A DNA stretch of 63,976 nucleotides, counting the filler, from Basidioascus undulatus (lineage: Eukaryota), in assembly GCA_000826855.1 (NCBI GenBank). It is 3 parts of 3 records of this genome, joined end to end, with 100 filler letters (N's around TTAATTAATTAA, not from the genome) between each part and the next. Parts side by side here need not be neighbours in the genome. Positions count along the whole stretch, not along the records: positions 43,631 to 63,976 come from JTLS01000375.1; 2 more parts are not named here. One strand, 5' to 3'. The translations under genes were made by a program, and so were the position numbers. Position 1 is the first letter of the stretch. Every line of letters begins with the position of its first letter. The notes under the pieces are model-generated. The model was not told where the DNA came from, made no database searches, and saw only the letters and a program-made list of their open reading frames with translations. Positions 372-50,299 of this stretch are shown here, in pieces.

Positions 372-1990
372 ATGTCATCCGAACCCTCAACCGCGCCTAA
401 TCCGGCGCCAACGACAGCCTCAACACCGAGGACGCGCAGCGCCGTCGGTGCAGCCTCCGCGAAGCGCATCAAAGCTCACCAGAACCGGATCTACGCGCAC
501 CCGCTCCCCCTCCTTCTTAACAGTCCTGCCGCACCCTCCGACACTCAATCGACGACTTTCGCCTCTCTTTTATCGCGCCTCTCTCTTTCCCCACGTCCCT
601 CGCTTCTCAACCCCCTATGCGTGGGCGTATACGAGCGCGCGTCTCGCAGCGTCTGGGTCACGAACGAGCGGGACGTGCGCGTGCTTTGGACGAGGGGGTT
701 CTTTGGGAAGGGAAGCCTGAGTAGGAGCGAGCCAACGTGGTTGGATCGAAGGAGAAAATTGATTGCTTCGGCTGAGAGTGGACGTAGGTCCCCTTCCGTT
801 CCCCTTTGTGTGTCCCGGCTGCGGTGAGCATCGCTGACAATGGTAGGAGGATTCCCAGAACTGACCGCCGAGGAGATCACCGCTCGCCGCCGCGTCGAGC
901 GGCGACAGATGAAGGTCGAACGGGCGCGGGCGCTCGCAGAAGCACAGCAAGCAGCCGAAGCGGCCTTGACCGGCGTGACGCCGCCGGCGTCGTCGGCAGC
1001 GATGGTGGCCTCCCCGCCGCCGTCGCCTGCGCGCGCACCAGATGAGGTCGTGCTCAATCCGACCTCGTCGACCCCCGAGACGCCGCCGCCCAAGTGGGAG
1101 CCCCTCGAGCCGTTCCCAGAGATCAAGCCGGAGACACCTGCGAAGGAGGGGGAGAAGTTGGAGAAGCGCGTGCCGGCCGAGGTGGAGAACCTCGAGCATC
1201 TGCAGCTTACGCTCCCGGAGGCGCTGTTCCTCGCTTGGGGAATGGACTGTCTTAAAGTGCTGGATCCCGCTACCGTGCGCCTTCTCACATCGTTCCTTGC
1301 AGTGTATCGTCCTTACCCAAGTCCGCAGAACACCTACCTCCCTGCTCACGCGCTCTGGCGCGAGTTCCTCCTCTCCTCCATCCCCCATCCCTCTCTCCCC
1401 ATACCGACCCAGCAAGACTGCCTCACGCGCTTCGACAATCCGTTCCTCGTCTCCTTCGTCGCGTACTCGCACTTCCGCGCCCTCGGCTGGGTCGTGAAGA
1501 GCGGTATCAAGTTCTGCGTCGACCTCGTGCTATACAAGCGCGGGCCTGTGTTCCACCATGCTGAGTAAGTCTCCCAGCTTGTCCGGTCCCCCCCAAAGGA
1601 GTCTGACTCCAGCGCCCTGCCGCTCCTTTTCACGCAGGTTCGCGGTGGTCGTCTGCCCCCAGTACGAGGACCCCGCCGACAAGGCGAACTCGCCGTTCCG
1701 CCTCGACAACGCCGATCGCCTCTCCTGGCAATGGCTCAACACTATCAATCGTGTGAACTCCCAAGCCAAAAAGGTGCGTCGATTGTTCTAATTTCCGGTG
1801 CATAATTACTGAACGTTTGCTGAACCGGACTTGCGGGCGCCAAACAGACTCTCATTCTCGCCTACGTGACGATTCCGTCTTCCAAACGCGTCTCGCCCGA
1901 CGTGCTGCATGACCCCAGGCGGCTTGGCGAGGCCTACTCGGTCAGGGAGGTCACCGTCCGGAGATTCGTGCCTGCTCGGATGAGAGATTG
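372..1990 (+). CDS. SEN2: tRNA-splicing endonuclease catalytic subunit Sen2 (5 exons)
   Basis: Motifs [100 protein letters not shown]; GT-AG introns near 785, 1275, 1565 and 1773. Confidence 0.93.
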
Positions 1991-13567: not shown

Positions 13568-14713
13568 GAAGTCCTGGTCGCAACGGCTACGACGACTTCG
13601 CCCGGCTTGAAACTATTGCGCAGAGGTCGTCAAATGGAGATTGGCCGAGACGAAGCCGTAGCACGATGGCCAGATCGAGACGAAGTCTTCGAGTGGTAAT
13701 TCGCTCTGCTTTTCACGAGGATCTATGCGGTCCACCCTGCCTGGGCGCCGTATTCTCGAAGCCAGCGCCTTCGGACTCTCACTCCGTTCAGAACGTCGCC
13801 ACACCGCTATTTGTGGCCTGCAAACATCATCCAGGCCGTAGAGGCGCTCTAGGCAGAGGGCGCGGCTAGCAAGAGTCGCGAGTGGTATTGAAAATCAGCG
13901 ATACAAAGTGGACGTGTGTGGATACTGGAGGTTGGCGCGAACAGTTCGAAATTGCCAAGCGGCATTCTGGGAGGCAACCGAGCTCCGATGCCAAGGACTT
14001 GGGCCACGATGTGTGGCAAAGCTGGCAGAGCTGCTGGAAGCGGAAACAGGCACTGTGAAAGTTGAAGACGACGTCTCGCCTAATCGTCTTGCTCTTGCAT
14101 ACAGCCACTGTGAAGTGCACGTGGCTGGGCCGACTTCTCAGAGTTAAGGTGTGTCGCTGAGAACAGAGAACGCATTTTCGGCCGACTTGGGCCAGCCACG
14201 AGAGCGCGAGCTGATTGAGGCGAGTCGAGGAAGTCGAGGCGCTCAGTCGTTCGAGCCTCGAAACCTTAACGGCTCTGGCATCTCACGAGCTCGCTCGCCC
14301 TCACCCATTCACTGCCAATGTTGAATAATCGCACATTCGCATTGGATAGGAACTTGTACTTAATGAACAGTACAACGCGACTGCTGGTGTGCGGGCGAGA
14401 CGCTGGCGTTCACGATGAGGCTGCCGTGAAAATCAACCGCCTGCCAACGTTCCACAGTTAGGAAGTGCCCGCCTCATTCAAAATGAATGTCCAATGAATG
14501 ACCGGCAAAAGTATAGAGCCGTGGGTTCTGAACACGGCACATGGAGGATCCACCAGGCGGCGACAGCAGGCGCTTCAGTGCATATGACAATGTAGATAGA
14601 ATGAAGTACGATAGAGCAAGCAAAAAATGCGACAAGCATGAGATTTCAAATCGAAGTGTACGGAAAATGTGGGCGAAGTGAATACAACAGAAAGGTACGT
14701 GTCCATCGTCGCT

Positions 14714-17700
14714 CTAGGAAGTGATCATGAACTGGAAAAGGTCCGCAAGGGGAACGAAGCCACGCCCGTTCTTGTCCATGAACCGCTGAACGGTGCGGTA
14801 AAGTTGGGTGAGGACGGGCCGGTTCTGCTCCGCAAGCGCAGAAACTTCGTCTGTACCGAGAGAGTCGAGCAGCGTTAGCGAAGACTACAAACGAAAAAAA
14901 AGAAGCGCAGCCGACTGCACGTACCGAAGCGGGCCGTGCCTGCGGCGGACGAGATGGCGCGGTTGGTGTCGAAAAGCGTGCGGAAGAAGAGAAGTTGGTT
15001 GTAGAGCTTTTGGTCGTCATACTGTGATCGGACAAGCAGGAGGTCAGTCGCGCTGAACATGAACTGGAGAGACAACTTGCAGCGGAGACGAACCTCATAG
15101 CGCATCGAGCCTCGGCAGCCGTTGGCCAAGCATCGCCTGCCGTACACGCTCATCATGCGTGATCGGTTGCCGCACGACGGGTCGTCGCAGACGAGCATGC
15201 CGTCGTAGTACTTTGCGATGTGCGCCCGGATCTGCAGCTCGAGCTGCGTCGCCACCGAGCCCAGGGCGTACGGAGACGAGCAGGCCGGGCAGGCCAGGCC
15301 TGATGGCTTGATGACGCCGGTCTACAAACCAAAGGAGAATGATTAGTCTTCAGGTTGTAAAGAAGAGGGACAGCGGATCGTACAGCATCGTTGCTCAGGC
15401 CGCCGAATGCGAGCGTGACATCGCAGGAGCGGCAGCGCAGTGCGAAGGGCGTCGCCTCGCGGAAGCGCTCCTTGTCCGACAGCTGCGACTGAAGGGTGTG
15501 GAACTCGCGTTCAACGTCGTGCGTGCCGCTCGAAGTCTGGAAGCGCGTCGGATCAAGGCCTGATGGGGTCACCTGGTGATCAGCAATTTGCAGTGCGGTG
15601 AGAACGCTGCGGCGGAAACGGACCGAGGCATTCTGCCAATCGTGCGCGGTCCGTGCCGTCGATGGACTCGCACAGACGCTCGACTGGAGGCAGGACTTGC
15701 AAAGAAAGGTACTGCTCGAAGTCTGCTCTCTCACCCTGTTAGCAGGCGATCGCAGGCCGTGCGTGCATGAGAACAGACACACCGATCTTCAGCTGCGAGT
15801 CCTTGCGCCGCAGGTCGTCCGGGTGGTACGCGTTGTCGGCCTTGGCAGTCTTGCTCGTCTGGCCGTCCTCGCCCAGGCAGAAGACATATGGGATGACGTC
15901 ACCCGCGCGAGCGTGCCCGCCCTTCGCCTTGAGGCGGAGCGCGACCTGGACGTGCGGCTGGCTCTTCGCGTCCGGGTAGTCCTCAGGTTGTTTACCGAGA
16001 CGCTGAAAGAAGGACGTAGCGCGTCAGTCCACGTTATCGATGCAAGGTCGAGATTGAATAGAGAACGTACCTTGTTGATGATGAAATCGTCCAGCGGGAT
16101 CTTGCCGCCGCGAACGTCCTCGCCGACGGTTCGGAGGTACTCGTGGATGCGCTCGACGACAGTCTCGGTGGCCTCGCCGGACAAGATCTGCTGGAGGACG
16201 TAGCTGTTGGAGGCAAAAGAGAGAAGCGTAAGCCAAAACCGCACAGCTACAATGCGAGCGATGCCACACGCACTTCGAGACGTTCTTCGACAGCACCGAG
16301 TACTCGCGGCGTTTCATGTCGAGACCCTTGACCTCGGTGGAGATCGAGCCGTCCTCCTCGACCTTGACGGCGGCGTACTTCTTCTTCTGGAGGAGGAGCA
16401 AGCGCTGGAAGACGCCGTCGAGGTCGATCTCGAGGAGCTTGTACCGCTCGTTCACGTGCTTCTTGAACTCGTTCGCGACCTTGAGCGCCTCGTCGTAGTT
16501 GAGCTCGTTCGAGTTCACGAAGACCGAGTCAGTGTCGCCGTAGACGACCTGCAGCAGAAAGCAAAGCAGTTAATTCGGGACAGTCCGACAGCCAGGTAGT
16601 GAGAGGAGGGGAGTGGAACGGAAGGTGCGTACGTCAAGCTGCATGCTCTCCGCGAGTTCGCGCGTGTGCGTGAGGATCTCGCGTCCCTTGAATGTCGTGA
16701 GGGCGGCGAGCGGGCGAGCGTAGAACCGCGAGCCCTCGAAGCCGAGACAGCCGTACATCGAGTTGGCGGTGAGCTTGAGCGCCTTCTGGCGGATGTCGAG
16801 CTGGAGATCACGCAGAAAAAGCTCAGCCACCCGTGACAAGGAGTAGGTAGGAATGGAGAGAGAAATGCGCACCTGAAGAAGCTGCGCAGGCGTCGCTTTC
16901 TTGTCCTTCATGAGGCCCTTGACCTGCCTGCGGCGGTTGACGAGCGTGGCGATAAGCCGGGGAAGGACGCCCTGCTTGATGTCCGACGACGGAACGTCCG
17001 GCATCTTCTCCTCGCCGTCCTGCTCATCATCCACGTGTAGTCAGCTCTCCGCTCGCTCCTGCCACAGCAGACCAAGCGCAAGAGAGCGGCACGCACCCCG
17101 TCCTGCTCGTCCAGCCGGTCGACAGTCGTGAAGTCGATGTTGAACTCCTGGATGATGCTCGGGTAGAGCGAGTTGAAGTCCATGACGAGGATGAACTTGT
17201 CCCAGAGCCCGCGCTTGGGCTCGAACACGAGGCCGCCCTTGTACTTGTCCTTCTTGCCGCCCTTCTTGCCGCCGCCGTCCTCGCCGCGCTCGGCAGCCGC
17301 CTCCGCCGCGGCGGCCTTCTTGTCCCACTTGTTGAGCTTGTCGGGGCAGACGTACTTCTGCCGATGGAACTCGTGCAGCAGAATGTACTCGTTGCGCTCG
17401 GCGCGACCGCCTGTGAGAGTACGGCCCCTGTGAAACCGAGCAAACAGGTTAAACCGACCCCTTTTTACGAGACACGAGAAGGCGTGTGACGAACCAGGAG
17501 TTTCCGGCGAGGTTGGTGAGTTGGCGGGTGAGCGGGAGGATCTGGACCTTGGAGACAATGGCCATCTGGAAGAACGTGTCGATCTCGCAGTGCTTGACGA
17601 AGTGGAGCAGGCGGTCCGGGCTCGTCGCGTAGTGGTCGAAGAACCCGGCCGTGTCGTCCGGGTCGATATCCTCGCGCTGGATCTTGAGGTGCGTGCCGCA

Positions 17701-20558
17701 CATCTCGGTCAGCGACCACGTCGTCGAGGCGATCATGCCCTACACCCCAAAAAGCCAGGCATCAGCGACCGCATACTTGGAAAGAATATCGAGAGGGAGG
17801 GGGAGGAGGATGGTCCGCACCTTGGCGTTGTCGGACGACAGGTCGCAGATGAGGCGCCCGGTCAAGATGAGCTTGTTCCGCCCGAACTTCGTCCGCGGCC
17901 ACTTGTCGCGGCGGACGCGGCCGATGCGCGACCAGTTGGAGATCTTGTGGTCCGCCATGCGCGTGAGGATCACGTCGAGCGTGTCGCCGAGGAGGTCGTG
18001 CCCGATGATCACGTCCGGGTCGTGCTTCTGGACGATGGCTGGCGGGAACCAAACACGCACGTAAGCGCAGCACGGTCATGAGGAAAGGGCCTTGGGGAAA
18101 AGGAAGGAAGGGGAGAGACGAAGACGAACCGAGGAGGTTGCTGAGCAGGTTCTTCTCGTTCCGCGCAGGTTCGATCTTGCTCCGCTCCTGGCGGGCCTTC
18201 ATCTCAAACCCGGGTGGGAACATCCCGAGGGGTCTGACGACCGTGTGGCTGCTCGACGGCTGCTTCTCGGGCGGTGTTGGGTCCTCAAGGTTGACTGTAA
18301 GATAGCCCAGCGATTGTTCAGATGAGGTCCAGTTTGCGTCTCTCTCCCTAACTCGGCAGGCTCACCGTCCGTCCACGTCCGCGCAGTCGCACAGACGACC
18401 TCGCGGTTGTTGTTCTGGTGGTTGACGATCGATCGCGCCGAGAGGGACATGATCGTGAGCGGCGGGGCGTCCTTCGGCGCCTCCGCGTCTGTCTCGGCGA
18501 AGGGGTTGACGTTCTTGGGTTCGCGAACGATGAACTGGTGTTTGCACCACGTGCTCTGCATGCATGAAGCCAAGTCAGCAGCGTGCCCCCGGAACCAAGG
18601 GAAGAGGATGAGGATGGGATAGGAGGGTGAAAGAACTTACGCCCTTGAGATGCACGTCCGCCTCTTCGATCTTGAGCCAGCAGGGGCCCATGATCTTGCG
18701 CTTGAGGACGAGGAGCTCGAACGGCGAGGTGTTGGTCCCGAAGACGAGCGAGAACGTCTTGCCCGACGCGCCGAGAGGGATCTGGGGTTCTGTTGGTCCT
18801 CCGCGTGTCTCTGAGTCAGTATTGCATTTCTGGAGAGGTGAAACAGCAGGAAGTGGAAGCAAGGAGAAGGCGACGGACGATCAAACGAGTAGACGACCTT
18901 GAGCCACTCGGACTCGCCCTGCGGGACGCCCTTCTCCTCGAACGCGTACTTGCGGTTCACGAACTTTGCGGCCCACGTCTTGATCTTTGCCTTCTGGCGG
19001 AGGCCGTCGAACTCGGCGTGGATCTCTCCGCGCTCGGGCGGCTCGGATGTCTCGTTGCCGGAGTCGTCTGCAATCACACATCGACATCAGCATTGCACTC
19101 CCAAGGCGGGTGGGGGAAAGAAAGAGTAAACGCACCGAGCGCATACGGCCTGGGAAGGACGAACAGGTTCCGCTCGATGCCGTCGACGGTGACGCTCGCG
19201 CTCGTCCACTTCTTGCGCTCGGGGTCGAAGACCTTGCCAAACAAGATGACCTTTCCCGCGTCCTCGAGGTAGTCGAACCAGTAAAGGTGGACGGACCCGT
19301 CGTCCTGATAGATGGGCGAGTCGGTCGGGCTGCCCGCGCGCTCGTACGGCGTCGCAGCCTCCGCGGCCTTGGGGGACAGGGATGGGGACGCCTGGAGGGA
19401 CTCGTGGATCGCGAGCCAGGCGCGCGGGGGCTCGGCCTTTGGCTTGGTCGGGGAGGGTGCGGCGGAGGGAAGGGCGAGGGAGAGGCCTGCGTTCCCGGGG
19501 GGCGGAGGGGACTCCTTCTTGACTGCCGGCGGGGGGGCGGGCTTGACGGCTTTGGAGGAGACGGCGTTGACACGCGGGCGCGGTCCGGTCGTCGCGGCCC
19601 TCAGCGGCGCGCGGACACTGAACCCGTCGGCCTCGTCCTCCGCGTCCTCCTCCTCCTTCTTGACCGGCTCGTCCATCGTCATCGCGTCGCCGAAATCAAA
19701 CTCGAGCCCGCCGTCCGAGATCGGCTCGTCGGCAGCGCGCACCGTCGCCTCGCTTAGGCGCAGCTTCTTGGCCGGGCTCGAGAGCGCGCCGAGGTCGAGT
19801 TTCCTGCGCGCGCGGCTCGCAAAGCTGTCGTCCGAGCTCGGGTGCTCGGGCGGGTCCGAGGACAGCCCCGTACTGTACCCGCTCCCGGACGCGGACGCCG
19901 CAGAGCGGTACGACCTGTACGACGACGTCGGCGGCTTCTTGATGGTGGGGGGCGCGGCGGGCGCGGAGGGGTCGTCGAGGTTGGAGAGGAGCGAGGAGAG
20001 AAAGTCGTCTGCCTTTTCGGACGAGACTTCTTTGCGGTACGGGTTGACGCTCGGCGCAGCGGCAGCGGCGGCGGCGGGCTTGCTGGCGGAGCGCGCAAAG
20101 TACGCTCCGAGCGACTCGGACGCCTTGACCTTTGTCTTTGCGGACTTCTTGGACTTGCGGCGTTTGGGCTGGTCTGTGGGAGGGGGGTGTTCAGACGCGT
20201 CGCCCCTCCGCGAACCCAAGGGGAAGAAAGCGCACCCTGGTCCTCCTCGCTGTTCTCCTGCTCAACCTCGTTGTCCCAGTCGTCCATGCCGTTGTCGACG
20301 TAGCCCGAGCCATCGTCGTCCTCGATAAAGTCGTCGCGGGCAAGGCGGCCCTTGACGATGTTCTTGTACTTGTCCTCGTCGACGACGTCAAAGATGTCCT
20401 CCTCCTCAGTGGCCTGCGGGGTGGGTGTGTGACTAAAGAATGGATGGATTGGATTGAGAAGGGACGGGGACGGGGACGGCGGGCACCTTCCACTGCTTTG
20501 CGCGACCGCCCTGGGCGCGTGCGGCGCGGAGCTGGGCGAGGCGGTCCTTGGAGCTCAT
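14714..20558 (-). CDS. POL1: DNA polymerase alpha catalytic subunit
   Basis: N-terminal [119 protein letters not shown]-terminal Cys clusters; stop TAG at 14714-14716. Confidence 0.97.
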
Positions 20559-21720: not shown

Positions 21721-21820
21721 NNNNNNNNNNNNNNNNNNNNNNNNNNNNNNNNNNNNNNNNNNNNTTAATTAATTAANNNNNNNNNNNNNNNNNNNNNNNN
21801 NNNNNNNNNNNNNNNNNNNN
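21721..21820. other. Artificial contig linker (N44-TTAATTAATTAA-N44)
   Basis: N runs flanking a six-frame stop spacer; identical to the one at 43531-43630. Confidence 0.97.
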
Positions 21821-43530: not shown

Positions 43531-43630
43531 NNNNNNNNNNNNNNNNNNNNNNNNNNNNNNNNNNNNNNNNNNNNTTAATTAATTAANNNNNNNNNNNNNN
43601 NNNNNNNNNNNNNNNNNNNNNNNNNNNNNN
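43531..43630. other. Artificial contig linker
   Basis: N44-TTAATTAATTAA-N44. Confidence 0.97.
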
Positions 43631-44305: not shown

Positions 44306-45842
44306 CGCCCCACTTCCCGCAGTTAAGGGCTCCCATTAACAGCGCCGCCGGCAAGCCTGAATCACAATGCTTGAGCTGCCATTGTCACACGGACTTGGTA
44401 TACTGGTGGACACTATTACAGATTACAGATGTATTAACCGACTTCGCCGAGTACAAAGCTCGGCTTAGGTCTGCGCGGTGGCAAGGACCACTCTGAGCCC
44501 GCCTGCCTGCGGCCCTCCTCCAGCCAAAAACACCTCCCCATACGCCCCTACCCCTGCCCCCACAGAGAGCCTTCGGCCCGTGAACGAGTGCGTGAGGTCA
44601 GGCGGTCGGGGGACGTACCTCCGCTTGTCGTTCCTCTGCCTGTCGTACTTTAAAAGCTGCTTTTTGGTGGGTGCCCCAGATCTATGCAGCAGAGAGCCCT
44701 TGTAGTGTGCGGAGCGGGAAGCCCGGAATATATAGGATCTTCGGGACTAACCGGAGGTAGTATACGCTCCGGCCCAACGGCCACACCGGGCCATCTTGGA
44801 ACAGCGAAACTGCCATGGCCTGCATCGTGTGTACCTTGTCCGGGGGATGTCTGCTTGCTCGAGAAGCGAGCGGGTCATACGTTGGATATCATCACTTGCT
44901 TTTTCCCTAATCGCGCTGTAGTGCCCACATTCCACAAAGACATGATGCTCGTCTTCGACCTCGCCGCAGTGTGGGGCTCGTCTTCAGGCCGCAGGCGGTC
45001 TGCTTCCCACGGTCTAGTTGCCAGTGATCCTGTGCGCGCTTGTAACTGGACCTGGACCTGAGCCGTGTATGCACTGACTGTTCTAGTGTACAGGTATTCT
45101 GGCGGGGCAGTACTGTCGTATAGGCTTGCGTTGACGCGGGACAGGGTTTTTGGCGGGAGGCTGTCTTGCTGCCGAATGGTCATGCAGTGCTGTGTCTAGT
45201 CTTTTATGTTCAACTCAACAAAACCGTCGCGGTCGTGGTAGGGAGTGTATGCGTCCATGTGGAAAGTTGCCCAGGGGACCATCAGAGTGGTGGGCGTGCG
45301 GGCCTGCTTTGCTGCCTGGTCCGCTGCGGCTGCTGCGAGTGCCGGCTCCCCTGTGCGCCTTCTCATGTTGCAGACTTACATGAGGATACCGCTCAGTTAG
45401 ACTTTTCAGCCAACGGTAGAAACTCCGTCTGTAGAGTGTGCCCCAAGTGTACGACAGGAATCCGTGGTCGCTAGCCTCCGCTAAGATGCGGCATGTGTTG
45501 AGTGATCCGTGTGCAGGATGGTGGTGGCGTACCGCTGTGGATTCCTGGCGAGCGGCCGCGTTGAGGCCTCTTCAAGGAGCTGCGAGGGGTACACGTGAAC
45601 GAGTGAGGTGGCAAAGTGGCGCAAGGCTCACTAGAAGGTGCTTTTCAACTCTAGCGAGGTGACTGGCACTGCGCTGTCATAAAGCACGGGATAGTAGATT
45701 AGAGGGGCTCTGACTGACTCAACAGAGTGCGTCAGCCTGTTTGGAGGTGTCCATATTTTGCTTTGCAGTGGTTGAGTAAATGTGAACCTGTGGTTCAAAA
45801 ATAATTTACTGATGTCCGGTCTAATAGCCGGATGGCAGCGAA

Positions 45843-45922
45843 ATGGTGAGGTCGGTTGTTCAATCCAGCCAGGGGGCATCTCAATTGCCCCTTTAGCTCA
45901 GTGGTAGAGCGCGCCACTCGTA
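45843..45922 (+). tRNA. Circularly permuted tRNA-Thr(CGT): 3' half 45843-45878 precedes 5' half 45887-45922
   Basis: Reassembled cloverleaf: acceptor GCCCCTT/AGGGGGC+A73, D arm GCTC-AGTGGTA-GAGC, anticodon stem CGCCA/TGGTG with loop CT-CGT-A|A, variable loop AGGTC, T arm GGTTG-TTCAATC-CAGCC. The break is at the canonical 37/38 position. Confidence 0.9.
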
Positions 45923-45927
45923 CTGTC

Positions 45928-45932
45928 TTTTT
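45928..45932 (+). terminator. Pol III oligo(dT) terminator of the permuted tRNA
   Basis: TTTTT 5 nt after position 37 of the 5' half. Confidence 0.75.
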
Positions 45933-47188
45933 ACTTGTTTTGCAGCCTTCTTTGCTGCTCCTGTAGGTCCAGGCCAGGGTTCTCATTTCCATAATCGAGC
46001 TTCGGGCATGAAGCGTTGATCTATTCAAACTGGCGGGTTGACCGTGATCTTGCGTTGGATTCTTCTGCAAGATAGAAGCTGCGATGGAGTTAAACAAGTT
46101 AATACGTCGGAATGAACAGTCTCCACAGATGCGACAGGTAATCCGAACACATGGGAGTTTTCATCTCATTCCTGCTCTCAAACGACAGAGTGTGTCTGTC
46201 TTGTGTCCACCGAGCTCCTGGGATTCCCTCACGATCATCCTTTTCGACTTCCCGGAAATCATAAATATTGGGTTGCATGCACATGTAGTCTGTATTCAGT
46301 GTGCCCCTATAGGGGGGCAATGTCGTTGCCAGGCTCAACTGCCCTTGAGGCCAGCACCGAAGCTGTTTCCACTAGCGGTTGTAAAGATGGCCGCCTTCCT
46401 TTCCTCCTACATGCAATCCGGACCTTTGACCTGGAACATTCCACGTATTTCCCGATTGATGAACAACCTTCGTGATTGCCTCGTTTCCACAGCTTCAGAC
46501 CGGACTTGCCCGTCCCGATGCGGGCTGGGGCCGCTTCAGTCCGAGTCTCTCTTCCTCCTCGCACAACCTGCCAACCAGCCAGTGAACTTTTGTTGTCGAC
46601 AGTCTTGGTATCAGCTCCAGCGCTCTCCTTTTCGTGCACAAGCGTTCGACATGTGCAGTCTGCTCAAGGTTGCCCTCCCTAAGATATGCGCAGGTAGCTT
46701 AAGCCTGCGATGGATCCTCCTGTCCGAGGTCCAAGTTGGAGTGTTACACCTGCTGTTTGAACGTGCTCAAAGATCCAATGAGTAAACGGCATGCATAGAC
46801 CCTACATTGGATTCCCCTCACGACACAGTGTGTCTGCCGAGCTTCCGTGGTTCACGCCATCACGACCGCCTACTGCACATGCCGCGTGATCTCAATGCAT
46901 TGTACAGACAGAGGTGGTGGTTGCGCAGGACGGTGACCTCAGAAAGAGATGTGAGCAGAAAATACGTGAAAAAGGAAACGGAGAGAAAACATAGGCCCTG
47001 GCCGATATCAAGAGCTTAGGCGCGGGTGGGTGACAGGGAACGGCCGTCGAGATCAGAACAGAGAGCAGGCAAGACCCAGCATGCGCGCGCGCTTGTGGTT
47101 GTTGAGAAAGAGAAAAAGAAAAGGTATTCATAGGCGTGAGAGGAGAAGAAGGAGGAGAGTGTGTTTGAGATTGTGAGATTTTAGACTC

Positions 47189-48689: not shown

Positions 48690-49109
48690 TATGGGCGCTG
48701 CTGTTGGTCGGAGCTTTGTCCCTCCGAAGGACTGAGAGTGCAGCTGGCGGCGAGTGTGCTGGGCGAAGGGGTCGCGACAGGCAGGCGAGGGCAAGCTCGA
48801 AGAAAGAAGCAAGGCGAGTCGCACAGGTCAGCAGCTTTTTTCATGAATCTTGCTCGCCCCGGCTTTCCGCCTCCGCCGTCCGCGAACCTTCGCTGCCAGT
48901 CTGCGCCTGCCTGCCTGCCTTTCTTCCCTTGCCTTCATGCTAGAATTCAATTCAAGGGAATTTATTGCAGCAGAATAATGCAGAATGAAATCATCCAAGA
49001 AGCAAAAAGAAGTGGCTTCCTGACAAGACGGTGGACACTCATGAACAGCCGCCAGCCTGCCCTCGAGCGGGCCTCGGATTCAAGTCCGAGCAAAATTAAC
49101 CAAAAGAAA

Positions 49110-49183
49110 TGGCCACTGCAGGGGTCGAACCTGCGACTTTGGAGTTATTAGCTCCACACTCTAACCAACTGAGTTAAGCGGCC
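49110..49183 (-). tRNA. tRNA-Ile(AAT), intronless
   Basis: GGCCGCTTAACTCAGTTGGTTAGAGTGTGGAGCT-AAT-AACTCCAAAGTCGCAGGTTCGACCCCTGCAGTGGCCA folds to a standard cloverleaf, followed by TTTCTTTT. Confidence 0.95.
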
Positions 49184-50299
49184 AACATAAGAACAATTGA
49201 ATTGAAAATCCATCTTGTGCAGCCATCAAGGGCTTCACGCAGTCCAGTCGGACCCACCAGTTCAGGTGCAGTGACAAGATGAAATGCTCTATTGAGAGTC
49301 TCAATACTAAGATAATCACCTAAAGAACGAATAAAGGTGTTCAGAAAGGAGGTCTGGAGCTGACAGTCAACCAACTCACTGCCTCGCTTTCGTCGGTAAG
49401 CACTGCAGCCTATAGCTTGAAGGTAGACAGAATTTACAACCATACTATTTAACTTAGAGGTGGACCGGTGCTTGGCCGTAGACCGGCCCCGCTTTACTAC
49501 ACATGTGTTGAAACTGCGGTGTGTATGGCTGTGGCAGATTGCGCCAGACTGGGCTGGCAGGAGGAAGCAAAAGTTATTGATCGGCACGGTTTTAATTGAC
49601 TGGAATCCCTTTTGAACATACAGTTCAGAGCTAAATGTGGCAAACTCGGATAAGCACTCTGTGGCATGAACGACCGTTGAGGACTTGGAACGCTGGCAGT
49701 CTTTGGATCGCTTTGTTCAGCGGCGGGGAGCTAAAATACAAATGTCCCATTTTTGGAGAAGAAAAGTCTTCGTAAAGTGTTTGGGAAGTGCGCGAGCTCC
49801 GAGTGAACGAGTGAGGTGGAACGCACAACTCGCATTAGCAGGCGAGTGCATGCATTTAAACCGTGAATGGGTGTGGCTGCTGTCACTCTCTTACAAGCTG
49901 CTCTCCTCTGACCAGGCGTAGTCTTTGGAAATCTAATATTCTCTTCTGGGTAAACATCTCCCGAAGCAGTCAATCAGATTGTTCGTGAAGTCGAGGTTGC
50001 TCCTGCTCGCTGGAGGCGGAAACACAGTCTGCCTGGCTAACGACGCATCTCGTTGATAATGCTGATTCTGAGGAGAGCGGTTCCAAGTTTGATTACCAGT
50101 TTTTGAAGGTAGTTTAAGGTAAATGTTGTTTTTTTGGGAGCGAAACGAAAAGACGGGGTCAAGCTGCTGAAGTACGGGACCGGCCGGCCCTAAAGCAGCC
50201 ATCCGCGGTAGGGCCCTGGAGACCGTCCCGGTCTTCTCCCTTCCCCCCGCACCCTCCATCACTCCTCCTCCCTAGTTTATTCCACCCGCGTCGCTCACC

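What the first reader, a model, noticed from the sequence alone, without database searches (positions are those of the whole stretch)
45790..45935. Circularly permuted tRNA-Thr(CGT) gene in a fungal genome
Seen: a complete tRNA 3' half (positions 38-73; 45843-45878), an 8-nt spacer TCTCAATT, then the matching 5' half (positions 1-37; 45887-45922), then CTGTC and TTTTT. The acceptor and anticodon stems pair across the two halves. The break is exactly at 37/38, and I see no second 5' half upstream or 3' half downstream. Known: permuted tRNA genes mature via a circular intermediate (splicing-endonuclease cleavage and ligation, then RNase P/tRNase Z removal of the acceptor spacer). They are described in Cyanidioschyzon merolae, some green algae and nucleomorphs, and Thermofilum. 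I am not aware of a fungal case. Inference: this is a functional permuted tRNA that standard tRNA scanners would miss, and it may supply ACG decoding.
Basis: partly seen in the sequence, partly recalled or inferred. Interest (0 to 1): 0.95.

Follow-up and report, generated by a model that had tools for sequence, protein, structure and literature searches.

The report
Back-to-front threonine tRNA gene, fungus
A basidiomycete fungus carries a threonine tRNA gene written with its back half in front of its front half, apparently one of several such copies, a layout so far described only in a few algae and archaea.

Summary
Window 45843-45878 is tRNA positions 38-73, 45879-45886 is an 8-nt spacer, and 45887-45922 is positions 1-37. 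Joined in the normal order, ARAGORN calls a perfect tRNA-Thr(CGT). ARAGORN and Rfam both miss the native locus.

- **Intact halves:** outside three acceptor-stem positions they are identical to conventional tRNA-Thr(CGT) genes on 25 metagenome contigs, none of which is permuted.
- **Flanking signals:** a rare 12-nt A/T block lies 35-46 nt upstream and a T5 run lies 5 nt downstream. The leader pairs with the trailer and the anticodon loop, giving a relaxed splice-site fold.
- **Host:** a basidiomycete, by DNA polymerase alpha hits, with the fungal mL59 gene on the same contig.
- **Paralogues:** contigs from two independent DNA studies of this genome hold at least three or four more loci in the same 3'half-spacer-5'half order. 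Their spacers differ (8, 10, 12 nt), acceptor-stem changes keep pairing in the two paralogues found in both studies, and no change is listed in the tRNA body.

My best reading (0.75) is a family of working type II (37/38) permuted tRNA-Thr(CGU) genes, the first I can find for fungi.

Not shown: any RNA evidence, whether conventional copies also exist, and the window's own spacer in independent contigs.

The parts
45797..45808 (+). A/T-only block AAAAATAATTTA, candidate upstream TATA-like Pol III promoter element, 35-46 nt before the 3' half
   Evidence: One search gives the sequence. One search finds only 9 A/T-only runs of 12 nt or more in 63976 nt (two of them artificial linkers), so a given 50-nt stretch overlaps one with chance about 0.009. 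Its function is inferred by analogy with C. merolae permuted genes and with TATA-dependent fungal tRNA genes (PMC3978253 passages).
45814..45833 (+). Leader hairpin (7 bp, 6-nt loop) of unknown role; may or may not be transcribed
   Evidence: Seen in the MFE fold of 45814-45928. A 977-nt contig from another locus aligns from 45814 to 45868 with 3 differences in both X1 and X2 (records 2 and 10), so this leader is shared by at least one paralogue.
45834..45842 (+). Leader segment GGCAGCGAA: GGCAG pairs with the trailer CTGTC, CGA pairs with U33-C34-G35, and the final A lies just 5' of the predicted 3' splice site
   Evidence: MFE and centroid folds. G at -3 could instead pair with C32, the anticodon-intron pair. 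8 of 11 intron-bearing conventional relatives also have G at -3 (read).
45843..45878 (+). 3' half of tRNA-Thr(CGU), positions 38-73: anticodon-stem 3' strand, variable loop, T arm (B box), acceptor 3' strand and discriminator A73; no encoded CCA
   Evidence: Differs only at position 68 from conventional genes L001, L004, L012 and L018/L021/L023.
45879..45886 (+). 8-nt intervening sequence TCTCAATT closing the acceptor stem, to be removed by RNase P and tRNase Z; contains no T4 run
   Evidence: In the paralogous loci this is the most variable stretch, with lengths of 8, 10 and 12 nt worked out from the tables.
45887..45922 (+). 5' half of tRNA-Thr(CGU), positions 1-37: acceptor 5' strand, D arm (A box), anticodon-stem 5' strand and C32 U33 C34 G35 U36 A37
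   Evidence: Positions 8-37 (29 nt) match 25 metagenome loci exactly.
45923..45927 (+). Trailer CTGTC, pairs with leader GGCAG; removed at the predicted 5' splice site after A37
   Evidence: Other loci of the genome keep CTGT or CTGTC after A37 (loose ends behind 45926 and 45927).
45928..45932 (+). T5 run, candidate RNA polymerase III terminator; a T4 run follows at 45937-45940
   Evidence: One search finds 34 T5+ runs on the + strand, so one starts within 10 nt of a given point with chance about 0.005. In one search, 3 loose ends behind the 5' half also run into T runs within 10 nt.

Best explanation
This is a working, circularly permuted (type II, junction 37/38) nuclear gene for tRNA-Thr(CGU) in a basidiomycete, and one member of a small family of such genes in that genome.

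Inferred pathway:
1. RNA polymerase III starts upstream of the 3' half. It is probably directed by the A/T-rich TATA-like block, because the B box here lies upstream of the A box.
2. It reads 3' half, 8-nt spacer, 5' half and CTGTC, then stops at the T5 run.
3. The transcript folds into a normal cloverleaf whose acceptor stem is closed by the spacer loop.
4. The anticodon arm is extended by leader-trailer pairing, which mimics an intron-containing pre-tRNA cut open within its intron.
5. The ordinary Sen endonuclease cuts after A37 and before A38, and the tRNA ligase joins A37 to A38.
6. RNase P and tRNase Z remove the spacer, and CCA is added.

If splicing comes first, the intermediate is a circle, as in Cyanidioschyzon. 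If end-processing comes first, as in budding yeast where it precedes cytoplasmic splicing, the intermediate is a base-paired two-piece tRNA. Either order gives the same mature tRNA.

Shown here: the gene layout, intact halves, flanking signals, the predicted fold, the paralogues and the fungal host. Inferred: transcription, every processing step and their order.
For: 1. **Layout and cloverleaf** are exact, and the locus is unique against controls.
2. **No decay.** All 58 positions outside the acceptor stem equal those of conventional tRNA-Thr(CGT) genes L001, L004, L012 and L018/21/23. The differences at positions 5, 6 and 68 keep 7 of 7 acceptor pairs.
3. **Paralogues in the same genome, from two studies.**
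   - Single contigs at single-copy depth align across the 3' half, spacer and 5' half.
   - Paralogue A: X1 record 4 (10857 nt) and X2 record 11.
   - Paralogue B: internal to X1 record 5 (28968 nt, positions 14351-14438) and to X2 record 13 (12390 nt).
   - Two further 60-nt contigs occur in X1.
   - Every listed difference falls in the spacer (7 of 8 positions, plus indels) or in acceptor positions 4-6 and 67-69.
   - In A, pair 4:69 goes C-G to T-A and 6:67 goes T.G to T-A. In B, 5:68 goes C-G to G.T and 6:67 goes to C-G.
   - No difference is listed in the D, anticodon, variable or T regions.
4. **Signals.** A rare A/T block lies 35-46 nt upstream and T5 lies 5 nt downstream, with chances of about 0.009 and 0.005. 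There is no T4 run inside the unit. Three other loci show the 5' half followed by a short trailer and a T run (loose ends).
5. **Fold.** The MFE equals the centroid. It keeps the cloverleaf and adds GGCAG:CTGTC and CGA:UCG helices, which place both junctions in bulges.
6. **Conventional relatives** often carry 37/38 introns of 7-31 nt (11 of 16 versions). The splice machinery and an intron-derived origin are therefore at hand in this lineage.
7. **Demand.** ACG is the most used Thr codon in 8 Pfam-backed ORFs, 64 of 164.
8. **Precedent.** PMC3978253 (section 4 and passages read) describes the same layout, spacers of 1-74 nt, an upstream TATA-like sequence, a downstream T stretch and maturation through a circular RNA.
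Against: - There is no RNA evidence of any kind. No precursor, circle or mature tRNA has been seen.
- The central helix and bulges are not the canonical 3-4-3 BHB. In the canonical register only 2 of 4 pairs form (C32:G-3 and C34:G-5). The MFE register gives bulges of 2 nt.
- Fold stability is not exceptional: z = -1.85, with 10 of 200 shuffles folding as well.
- The A and B boxes are in inverted order, which is unsuitable for normal TFIIIC-directed initiation. Fungi are expected to use TFIIIC (general knowledge).
- T5 is a weak terminator in budding yeast (recalled).
- One paralogue, seen in X2 only (88-nt contig), would have a C.A mismatch at pair 5:68.
- Both searches for permuted relatives in metagenomes came back empty. 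The permuted pattern gave 0 hits, and the 25 loci found with the 5' half are all in conventional order.
- Depth tables hint at further copies of each half whose layout I could not see, so conventional copies may exist and make these copies dispensable.
- The window's own spacer is not displayed in independent contigs.
Confidence: 0.75

Rival explanations
1. Silent relics. A tandem duplication of an intron-containing tRNA-Thr(CGT) gene lost its outer halves, the remnant was copied a few times, and none of the copies yields a tRNA. Conventional genes elsewhere do the decoding.
For: - Conventional relatives commonly have 37/38 introns (11 of 16 versions), so the raw material for such a duplication exists.
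- A weak D-loop-like match lies upstream at 45756-45776.
- Inverted A/B box order argues against easy transcription.
- No RNA evidence exists.
- Depth tables allow further copies of each half elsewhere.
Against: - Relics should decay. Here 58 of 58 non-acceptor positions equal working relatives.
- Among the paralogues, listed changes are confined to the spacer and to acceptor-stem positions, and they keep pairing in the two paralogues found in both studies.
- A T run directly after the 5' half recurs at several loci.
- The upstream and downstream relic matches are not significant: 56 of 1000 and 213 of 1000 dinucleotide shuffles reach them.
Confidence: 0.13
2. A tRNA-derived dispersed repeat (SINE-like or retroposed copy of a circular or dimeric tRNA transcript) that spreads as a unit and is not a decoding tRNA gene.
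For: There are several copies at unrelated loci. They share about 29 nt of leader (alignment from 45814) and 17-20 nt of trailer (alignments to 45939 and 45942) in some copies. PMC3978253 (passages) discusses reverse transcription of circular pre-tRNA as a possible origin.
Against: - The unit is only about 120 nt, with no tail or body beyond the tRNA.
- The spacer diverges strongly while no change is listed in the tRNA body and the acceptor changes mostly keep pairing. That is the pattern of selection on a tRNA, not of a decaying repeat.
- The window holds a single copy.
Confidence: 0.06
3. A tRNA-like non-coding RNA that works in the permuted, unspliced form (as the tRNA-like module of bacterial YrlA does) rather than as a decoding tRNA.
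For: Rfam's only sub-threshold match is YrlA over 45825-45932, at 21.8 bits and E = 0.054. That match reflects the same T arm, acceptor, D arm order.
Against: - The score is far below the gathering score of 69.
- Both halves of a full anticodon loop and stem are kept and equal a real tRNA-Thr(CGU).
- YrlA is bacterial.
- A complete anticodon arm split at 37/38 is what splicing needs, not what a mimic needs.
Confidence: 0.03
4. Assembly artefact: a collapsed or mis-joined tandem of ordinary genes.
For: The locus sits in repeated tRNA sequence where short-read graphs break. The flank contigs stop inside the halves, and the window's own spacer is not among the laid contigs.
Against: - The left flank runs without a 5' half straight into the 3' half. 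The 5' half runs straight into the trailer, T5 and unique right flank, with 0 differences in both runs (records 1, 8, 9, 16).
- Paralogous loci with the same order lie inside long contigs in two independent studies, from 2014 and 2025.
Confidence: 0.03

Closest known systems
Type II (junction 37/38) circularly permuted tRNA genes of Cyanidioschyzon merolae, including its tRNA-Thr(CGT) and Thr(AGT) (Soma et al. 2007; Table 1 of PMC3978253, read)
   Same: - The 3' half lies upstream of the 5' half on one strand.
- The break is at 37/38.
- A short intervening sequence closes the acceptor stem (7-74 nt there, 8 nt here).
- A TATA-like sequence lies within 50 nt upstream and a T stretch lies downstream.
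- The leader and trailer pair at the junction.
- There is no encoded CCA.
- Even the same isoacceptor is involved.
   Different: - The host is a basidiomycete fungus, not an alga.
- C. merolae lacks recognisable TFIIIC A/B-box-binding subunits and has an endonuclease that accepts many BHB positions. A fungus is expected to have the standard TFIIIC, Sen and Trl1 set (general knowledge, not tested here).
- The junction fold here is a relaxed, not a canonical, BHB.
- Here there are several paralogous permuted copies of one isoacceptor.
- The circular intermediate is demonstrated in the alga and untested here.
Permuted tRNA genes of Mamiellophyceae (Ostreococcus, Micromonas) and the Bigelowiella natans nucleomorph (Maruyama et al. 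2010; Table 1 of PMC3978253)
   Same: They are nearly all type II (37/38), have spacers of 5-64 nt, and lack extra introns, as here.
   Different: The isoacceptors differ (mostly Ser, Leu, Cys, iMet, Arg, Asn; no Thr), and they belong to the green algal lineage.
Permuted tRNA-iMet and tRNA-Tyr of the archaeon Thermofilum pendens (Chan, Cozen and Lowe 2011; cited in PMC3978253)
   Same: The gene order is permuted and maturation is BHB-dependent.
   Different: The junction is at 59/60, these genes carry extra introns, and both the promoter and the endonuclease are archaeal.
Conventional intron-containing fungal tRNA-Thr(CGT) genes (metagenome loci L001-L025)
   Same: The tRNA body is the same and the splice position is the same (37/38). 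G at -3 of the sequence preceding A38 occurs in 8 of 11 intron versions. A T run follows the gene.
   Different: The exon order is normal and the intron is continuous (0 or 7-31 nt). In the window the 'intron' is opened into a trailer and a leader, and the acceptor ends are joined by a spacer.
Split tRNA genes of Nanoarchaeum equitans (PMC4090602 passages)
   Same: The halves are separated at 37/38, and complementary leader and trailer form a relaxed BHB. If RNase P and tRNase Z act before splicing, the fungal precursor would pass through an equivalent two-piece state.
   Different: There the halves are separate transcription units. Here they form one unit of about 120 nt.

Membership tests
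Circularly permuted tRNA genes (type II, junction 37/38) | 3' half encoded upstream of the 5' half on the same strand, separated only by a short intervening sequence | tested here: met
   45843-45878, 8-nt spacer, 45887-45922.
Circularly permuted tRNA genes (type II, junction 37/38) | The two halves reassemble into a canonical cloverleaf with the usual eukaryotic conserved nucleotides and no encoded CCA | tested here: met
   ARAGORN calls tRNA-Thr(cgt), 72 nt. U8, G18G19, U33, T54-T55-C56 and A73 are visible in the sequence. The body equals conventional genes.
Circularly permuted tRNA genes (type II, junction 37/38) | Leader and trailer pair to give a BHB or BHB-like motif at the junction | tested here: inconclusive
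   GGCAG:CTGTC and CGA:UCG helices flank both junctions, but the bulges are 2 nt. The canonical register gives only 2 of 4 central pairs, so the form is relaxed. Eukaryotic Sen uses a ruler mechanism and does not require a strict BHB (PMC4090602 passages).
Circularly permuted tRNA genes (type II, junction 37/38) | Upstream TATA-like sequence and downstream T stretch, with no terminator in the intervening sequence | tested here: met
   the A/T block is at 45797-45808 and T5 at 45928-45932, and no T4 run lies in 45814-45927.
Circularly permuted tRNA genes (type II, junction 37/38) | Expression: linear precursor, circular intermediate, and mature CCA-tailed tRNA | not testable with these tools
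   One search listed 3 DNA runs and no RNA run.
Circularly permuted tRNA genes (type II, junction 37/38) | The permuted gene is needed to complete the decoding set (no conventional gene for that anticodon) | not testable with these tools
   No genome is held for this window. One search shows other copies of each half, but not the layout of all of them.
Dimeric or tandem tRNA genes (two complete tRNAs with a short spacer) | A complete tRNA on each side of the spacer | tested here: not met
   No 5' half lies upstream to the contig end at 43631, and no 3' half lies in the 18 kb downstream.
YrlA / Y RNA-like (Rfam RF02553) | Score at or above the family's gathering threshold | tested here: not met
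   21.8 bits against a gathering score of 69.

The most novel reading that the evidence does not exclude
In this basidiomycete the whole tRNA-Thr(CGU) isoacceptor is encoded only by permuted genes. Reading ACG, its commonest threonine codon in the ORFs I counted, would then depend on circular or two-piece tRNA maturation by the ordinary opisthokont Sen-Trl1 machinery. It would also depend on Pol III initiation that bypasses the normal A-box-then-B-box geometry. That would be the first permuted tRNA system in fungi or any opisthokont, and it would have arisen independently of the algal and archaeal ones.
Probability: 0.35. Interest if true: 0.9.

Novelty: new member of a known kind. Interest (0 to 1): 0.8.

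Why it matters
Permuted tRNA genes have been treated as a curiosity of a few unicellular algae, one nucleomorph and one archaeon. They are often linked to unusual transcription factors or to broad-specificity endonucleases (PMC3978253; PMC13578239 passages).

A fungal case, in several maintained copies, would change that picture in four ways:
- It would show that the standard eukaryotic tRNA machinery can carry such genes.
- It would give a culturable fungal host in which to test how Pol III transcribes a gene whose B box precedes its A box.
- It would allow a test of whether maturation runs through a circle or through a two-piece intermediate.
- It would warn that fungal tRNA gene sets built with standard scanners can silently lack isoacceptors.

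The paralogues also offer a natural series for asking how permuted genes arise and spread.

Tried and rejected
- **Whole genome.** None is held, so I could make no census of conventional against permuted Thr genes.
- **RNA evidence.** No RNA holder was listed. This says nothing either way.
- **Metagenome scan for the permuted order** (T arm, gap, D arm). It gave 0 hits, so I have no relative with the same layout. The collection holds few fungal contigs, so this is weak.
- **Other permuted tRNAs in the window.** None was found (type II only, because ARAGORN allows introns only in the anticodon loop).
- **Relics of the lost outer halves.**
  - 5' half against the 150 nt upstream: best match at 45756-45776, reached by 56 of 1000 shuffles.
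  - 3' half against the 150 nt downstream: reached by 213 of 1000 shuffles.
  - Cross-controls: 358 and 658 of 1000 (one search is similar). These are not significant, so the tandem-duplication origin stays a hypothesis.
- **mL59 ORF** in the search for homologous proteins gave no hit at E <= 0.001.
- **Earlier findings of the scan.** There are none on this genome, none by sequence and none fungal.
- **ARAGORN on the 25 metagenome loci** (no intron option). It called 9 as tRNA-Thr(cgt) and miscalled or missed the intron-bearing ones, so I parsed those by hand. L002 and L020 were dropped there because their 5' ends are cut. L014 has an aberrant 3' part.
- **Window's own spacer** is not covered by a laid contig. 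It may have been filtered, so I do not count it for or against.
- **Run X3** (same sample as X1, share 0.34) added only a 263-nt low-depth contig, which I did not use.
Full report
**1. The observation**

- the 3' half (tRNA positions 38-73) at 45843-45878;
- the spacer TCTCAATT at 45879-45886;
- the 5' half (positions 1-37) at 45887-45922;
- CTGTC at 45923-45927 and TTTTT at 45928-45932.

When a script joined the 5' half to the 3' half, ARAGORN called a 72-nt tRNA-Thr(cgt). All four stems were intact and the MFE fold was the cloverleaf. In its native order the locus is invisible to ARAGORN and to Rfam at gathering scores. Each of those finds only a conventional tRNA-Ile(AAT) at 49109-49184 on the minus strand.

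In Rfam's permissive mode the only match over the locus is YrlA, at 21.8 bits against a gathering score of 69. YrlA is a bacterial RNA whose tRNA-like module has the same T arm, acceptor, D arm order. I read this as an echo of the permuted topology, not as membership.

I also ran a scan of my own: every 7-bp acceptor-type hairpin with a loop of up to 81 nt, rotated and given to ARAGORN with introns allowed. It hit only this locus, with 2 overlapping hits among 3567 + strand candidates. There were no hits among 3596 - strand candidates or among 3564 and 3599 candidates from two control sequences, the window reversed and the window complemented without reversal. The arrangement is real and not a chance product.

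**2. The host**

The window is three contigs joined by N44-TTAATTAATTAA-N44 linkers at 21721-21820 and 43531-43630. The locus lies on the third contig, 43631-63976.
- That contig also encodes a mitochondrial ribosomal protein mL59 (Pfam E = 1.8e-32). Its nearest Atlas clusters are ascomycete and basidiomycete.
- A DNA polymerase alpha exon on the first contig finds, among the named rows of the 120 listed hits, only Basidiomycota. Examples are Atractiella, Wallemia, Rhizoctonia and many Agaricomycetes, at 40-80% identity. None is near-identical.

The host is therefore a basidiomycete without a close relative in that protein collection. Its GC content is 58%, and the contigs of each run total about 35 Mb.

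**3. The halves are those of a working fungal tRNA**

The 29 bases of positions 8-37 occur exactly on 25 metagenome contigs.
- In all 25 the 5' half is followed by the rest of the gene, either directly or after an intron at 37/38. In 24 the 3' half is intact. L014 has an aberrant 3' part.
- I could parse 23 loci, giving 16 distinct versions. L002 and L020 are cut at the 5' end.
- 11 versions carry an intron of 7-31 nt and 5 carry none.
- 15 versions keep 7 of 7 acceptor pairs.
- The window's tRNA equals L001, L004, L012 and L018/L021/L023 at every position outside the acceptor stem. It differs at positions 5, 6 and 68 in a way that keeps all seven pairs.

Neither half has decayed. A pattern demanding the permuted order found nothing in the same collection.

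**4. Signals and fold**
- A 12-nt A/T-only block lies at 45797-45808, 35-46 nt before the 3' half. The window has only nine such runs, two of them the artificial linkers.
- The T5 run starts 5 nt after A37 and is followed by a T4 run.
- No T4 run lies inside 45814-45927.

This matches the review of permuted genes (PMC3978253; section 4 part 1 read in full plus passages). It reports a TATA-like sequence within 50 bp upstream of the 3' half, a T stretch after the 5' half, and none in the intervening sequence.

For the RNA, the MFE and centroid structures coincide. The fold has these parts:
- the cloverleaf, with its acceptor stem closed by the spacer;
- GGCAG (45834-45838) paired with CTGTC (45923-45927);
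- CGA (45839-45841) paired with U33-C34-G35;
- U36 and A37 bulged on one strand, and A(-1) and A38 bulged on the other.

Both predicted cut sites therefore lie at bulges flanking a short central helix. This is not the canonical 3-4-3 BHB, because in the canonical register only C32:G(-3) and C34:G(-5) pair. The G at -3 could instead form the anticodon-intron pair with C32, leaving a 3-nt bulge around the 3' site. The position of that pair (32 with -3) is recalled from Baldi et al. 1992. PMC3978253 says only that yeast endonuclease recognises A.I base pairs.

The same G at -3 is present in 8 of 11 intron versions of the conventional relatives (read).

According to PMC4090602 (passages), eukaryotic Sen measures from the mature domain, can also cut BHB substrates, and does not need anticodon-intron helices. 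A permuted precursor that keeps the full mature domain should therefore be an acceptable substrate.

The fold energy is unremarkable: z = -1.85, with 10 of 200 shuffles as stable.

**5. Paralogues: the strongest evidence**

No genome is held for this window. Three DNA runs hold the region, from two studies dated 2014 and 2025. No RNA run was listed.

Laying their contigs on 45300-46400 gave the following.
- *Flanks.* The unique left flank runs without any 5' half into the 3' half (records 1 and 9, 0 differences, ending at 45863 and 45862). The 5' half runs into the trailer, T5 and unique right flank (records 8 and 16, 0 differences).
- *Paralogue A.* Other contigs of the same genome, at single-copy depth and with unrelated flanks, align across the whole 3' half, spacer and 5' half. 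Paralogue A is X1 record 4 (10857 nt) and X2 record 11. Its spacer is 10 nt, pair 4:69 changes from C-G to T-A, and pair 6:67 changes to T-A.
- *Paralogue B.* This one is internal to X1 record 5 (28968 nt, its positions 14351-14438) and to X2 record 13 (12390 nt). Its spacer is 12 nt, pair 5:68 changes to G.T, and pair 6:67 changes to C-G. The two runs' indel tables for B describe one and the same sequence.
- *Further contigs.* Two 60-nt contigs in X1 have two spacer changes. An 88-nt contig in X2 would carry a C.A mismatch at pair 5:68.
- *Where the differences fall.* All differences listed in tables 3 and 4 lie in the spacer (7 of its 8 positions, plus insertions) or at acceptor positions 4-6 and 67-69. 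None is listed in the other 58 positions. Records 4 and 5 each count one or two more differences than are listed, and I cannot place them.
- *Trailers elsewhere.* Loose ends show three further places where the 5' half is followed by 0-5 nt of trailer and then a T run. None of the 14 loose ends shown (6 more were not shown) continues from A37 into a 3' half.

Divergent spacers, together with an unchanged body and acceptor changes that keep pairing in the two paralogues seen in both studies, are the mark of selection on the mature tRNA. Long contigs from two independent studies exclude an assembly artefact for the layout as such.

There are two caveats. At spacer position 45882 every laid contig carries another letter, so all the depth there belongs to paralogous loci and the window's own spacer is not independently shown. 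The tool also warns that short or human-like records are filtered.

**6. Mechanism**

I take this to be a type II permuted tRNA-Thr(CGU) gene. Transcription must begin upstream of the B box, so the normal TFIIIC geometry (A box at 8-19, B box at 52-62; PMC3978253) cannot place TFIIIB correctly. A TATA-directed start is the likeliest solution. The review notes that upstream TATA boxes matter for tRNA genes in some fungi, and that yeast tRNA genes with a TATA box can be transcribed without TFIIIC in vitro.

Sen cleavage at 37/+1 and -1/38 leaves the same ends as ordinary splicing, so the fungal ligase pathway should join them (Trl1 and Tpt1, recalled). RNase P and tRNase Z would then remove the 8-nt spacer, and CCA would be added.

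In budding yeast, splicing is cytoplasmic (PMC4090602). That it follows nuclear end-processing is my recollection. If this fungus is similar, the spacer would be cut first and the precursor would travel as two base-paired pieces, like a split tRNA, rather than as a circle. Which order applies is open.

ACG is the commonest Thr codon in eight Pfam-backed ORFs (64 of 164), so the isoacceptor is in demand. That tRNA-Thr(CGU) is a single essential gene in budding yeast is recalled, not checked.

**7. Origin**

The abundance of 37/38 introns in conventional relatives fits the tandem-duplication model discussed in PMC3978253. However, I found no significant relic of the lost outer halves.

**8. Novelty**

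Four full-text searches found no fungal or opisthokont permuted nuclear tRNA gene. They were 'permuted tRNA' with 'fungi', 'permuted tRNA' from 2015 onward, 'permuted' with 'tRNA' and 'Basidiomycota', and 'permuted pre-tRNA' with 'yeast'. For most of these papers I saw titles and abstract starts only.

The 2014 review lists 34 genes in red and green algae, a nucleomorph and Thermofilum. A 2026 review still confines them to algae and archaea (PMC13578239 passages). The tRNAscan-SE 2.0 paper mentions permuted tRNAs only for archaea.

Subscription journals and supplements not held may contain a report that I cannot see.

**9. Verdict**

This is a new member of a known kind in an unexpected lineage. 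Expression and indispensability remain to be shown.

Noticed in passing
window 21721-21820 and 43531-43630: Two N44-TTAATTAATTAA-N44 blocks (six-frame stop linkers) show that the window is three separate contigs pasted together: 1-21720, 21821-43530 and 43631-63976. Distances across them mean nothing.
   Followed up: partly
window 828-1568 (+): This ORF ends in the start of a tRNA-intron endonuclease catalytic domain (Pfam PF01974, E = 4.3e-09). Its best solved relatives are Sen2 subunits. It is the enzyme expected to cut the permuted precursor's 5' site, but it lies on a different contig, so the co-occurrence is a coincidence of window building.
   Followed up: partly
window 49109-49184 (-): A conventional intron-less tRNA-Ile(AAT) lies 3.2 kb from the permuted gene on the same contig. 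It is followed by TTTCTTTTG and has no clear TATA-like block upstream.
   Followed up: partly
window 45756-45776 (+): A stretch resembling positions 6-24 of the 5' half (D arm) lies about 70 nt upstream of the 3' half. It could be a relic of a lost upstream 5' half, but 56 of 1000 shuffles reach its score.
   Followed up: yes
window 45814-45833 (+): A leader hairpin (7 bp) sits just before the pairing segment, and it is shared with at least one paralogous locus (records 2 and 10). Its role is unknown. It loosely resembles the T arm of the 3' half, but not significantly (358 of 1000 shuffles).
   Followed up: partly
window 15153-20554 (-): Exons of the DNA polymerase alpha catalytic subunit (Pfam DNA_pol_alpha_N, DNA_pol_B, zf-DNA_Pol). 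I used them only to place the host among Basidiomycota.
   Followed up: partly
L014:401-500: This metagenome locus has an exact 5' half of tRNA-Thr(CGT), but its 3' part departs after the variable loop and only 2 of 7 acceptor pairs form. It may be a pseudogene or a gene with an intron in the T arm.
   Followed up: no
window 45825-45932 (+): There is a sub-threshold Rfam match to bacterial YrlA (21.8 bits, E = 0.054). Such weak YrlA hits may be a cheap flag for permuted tRNA genes in eukaryotic genomes.
   Followed up: no
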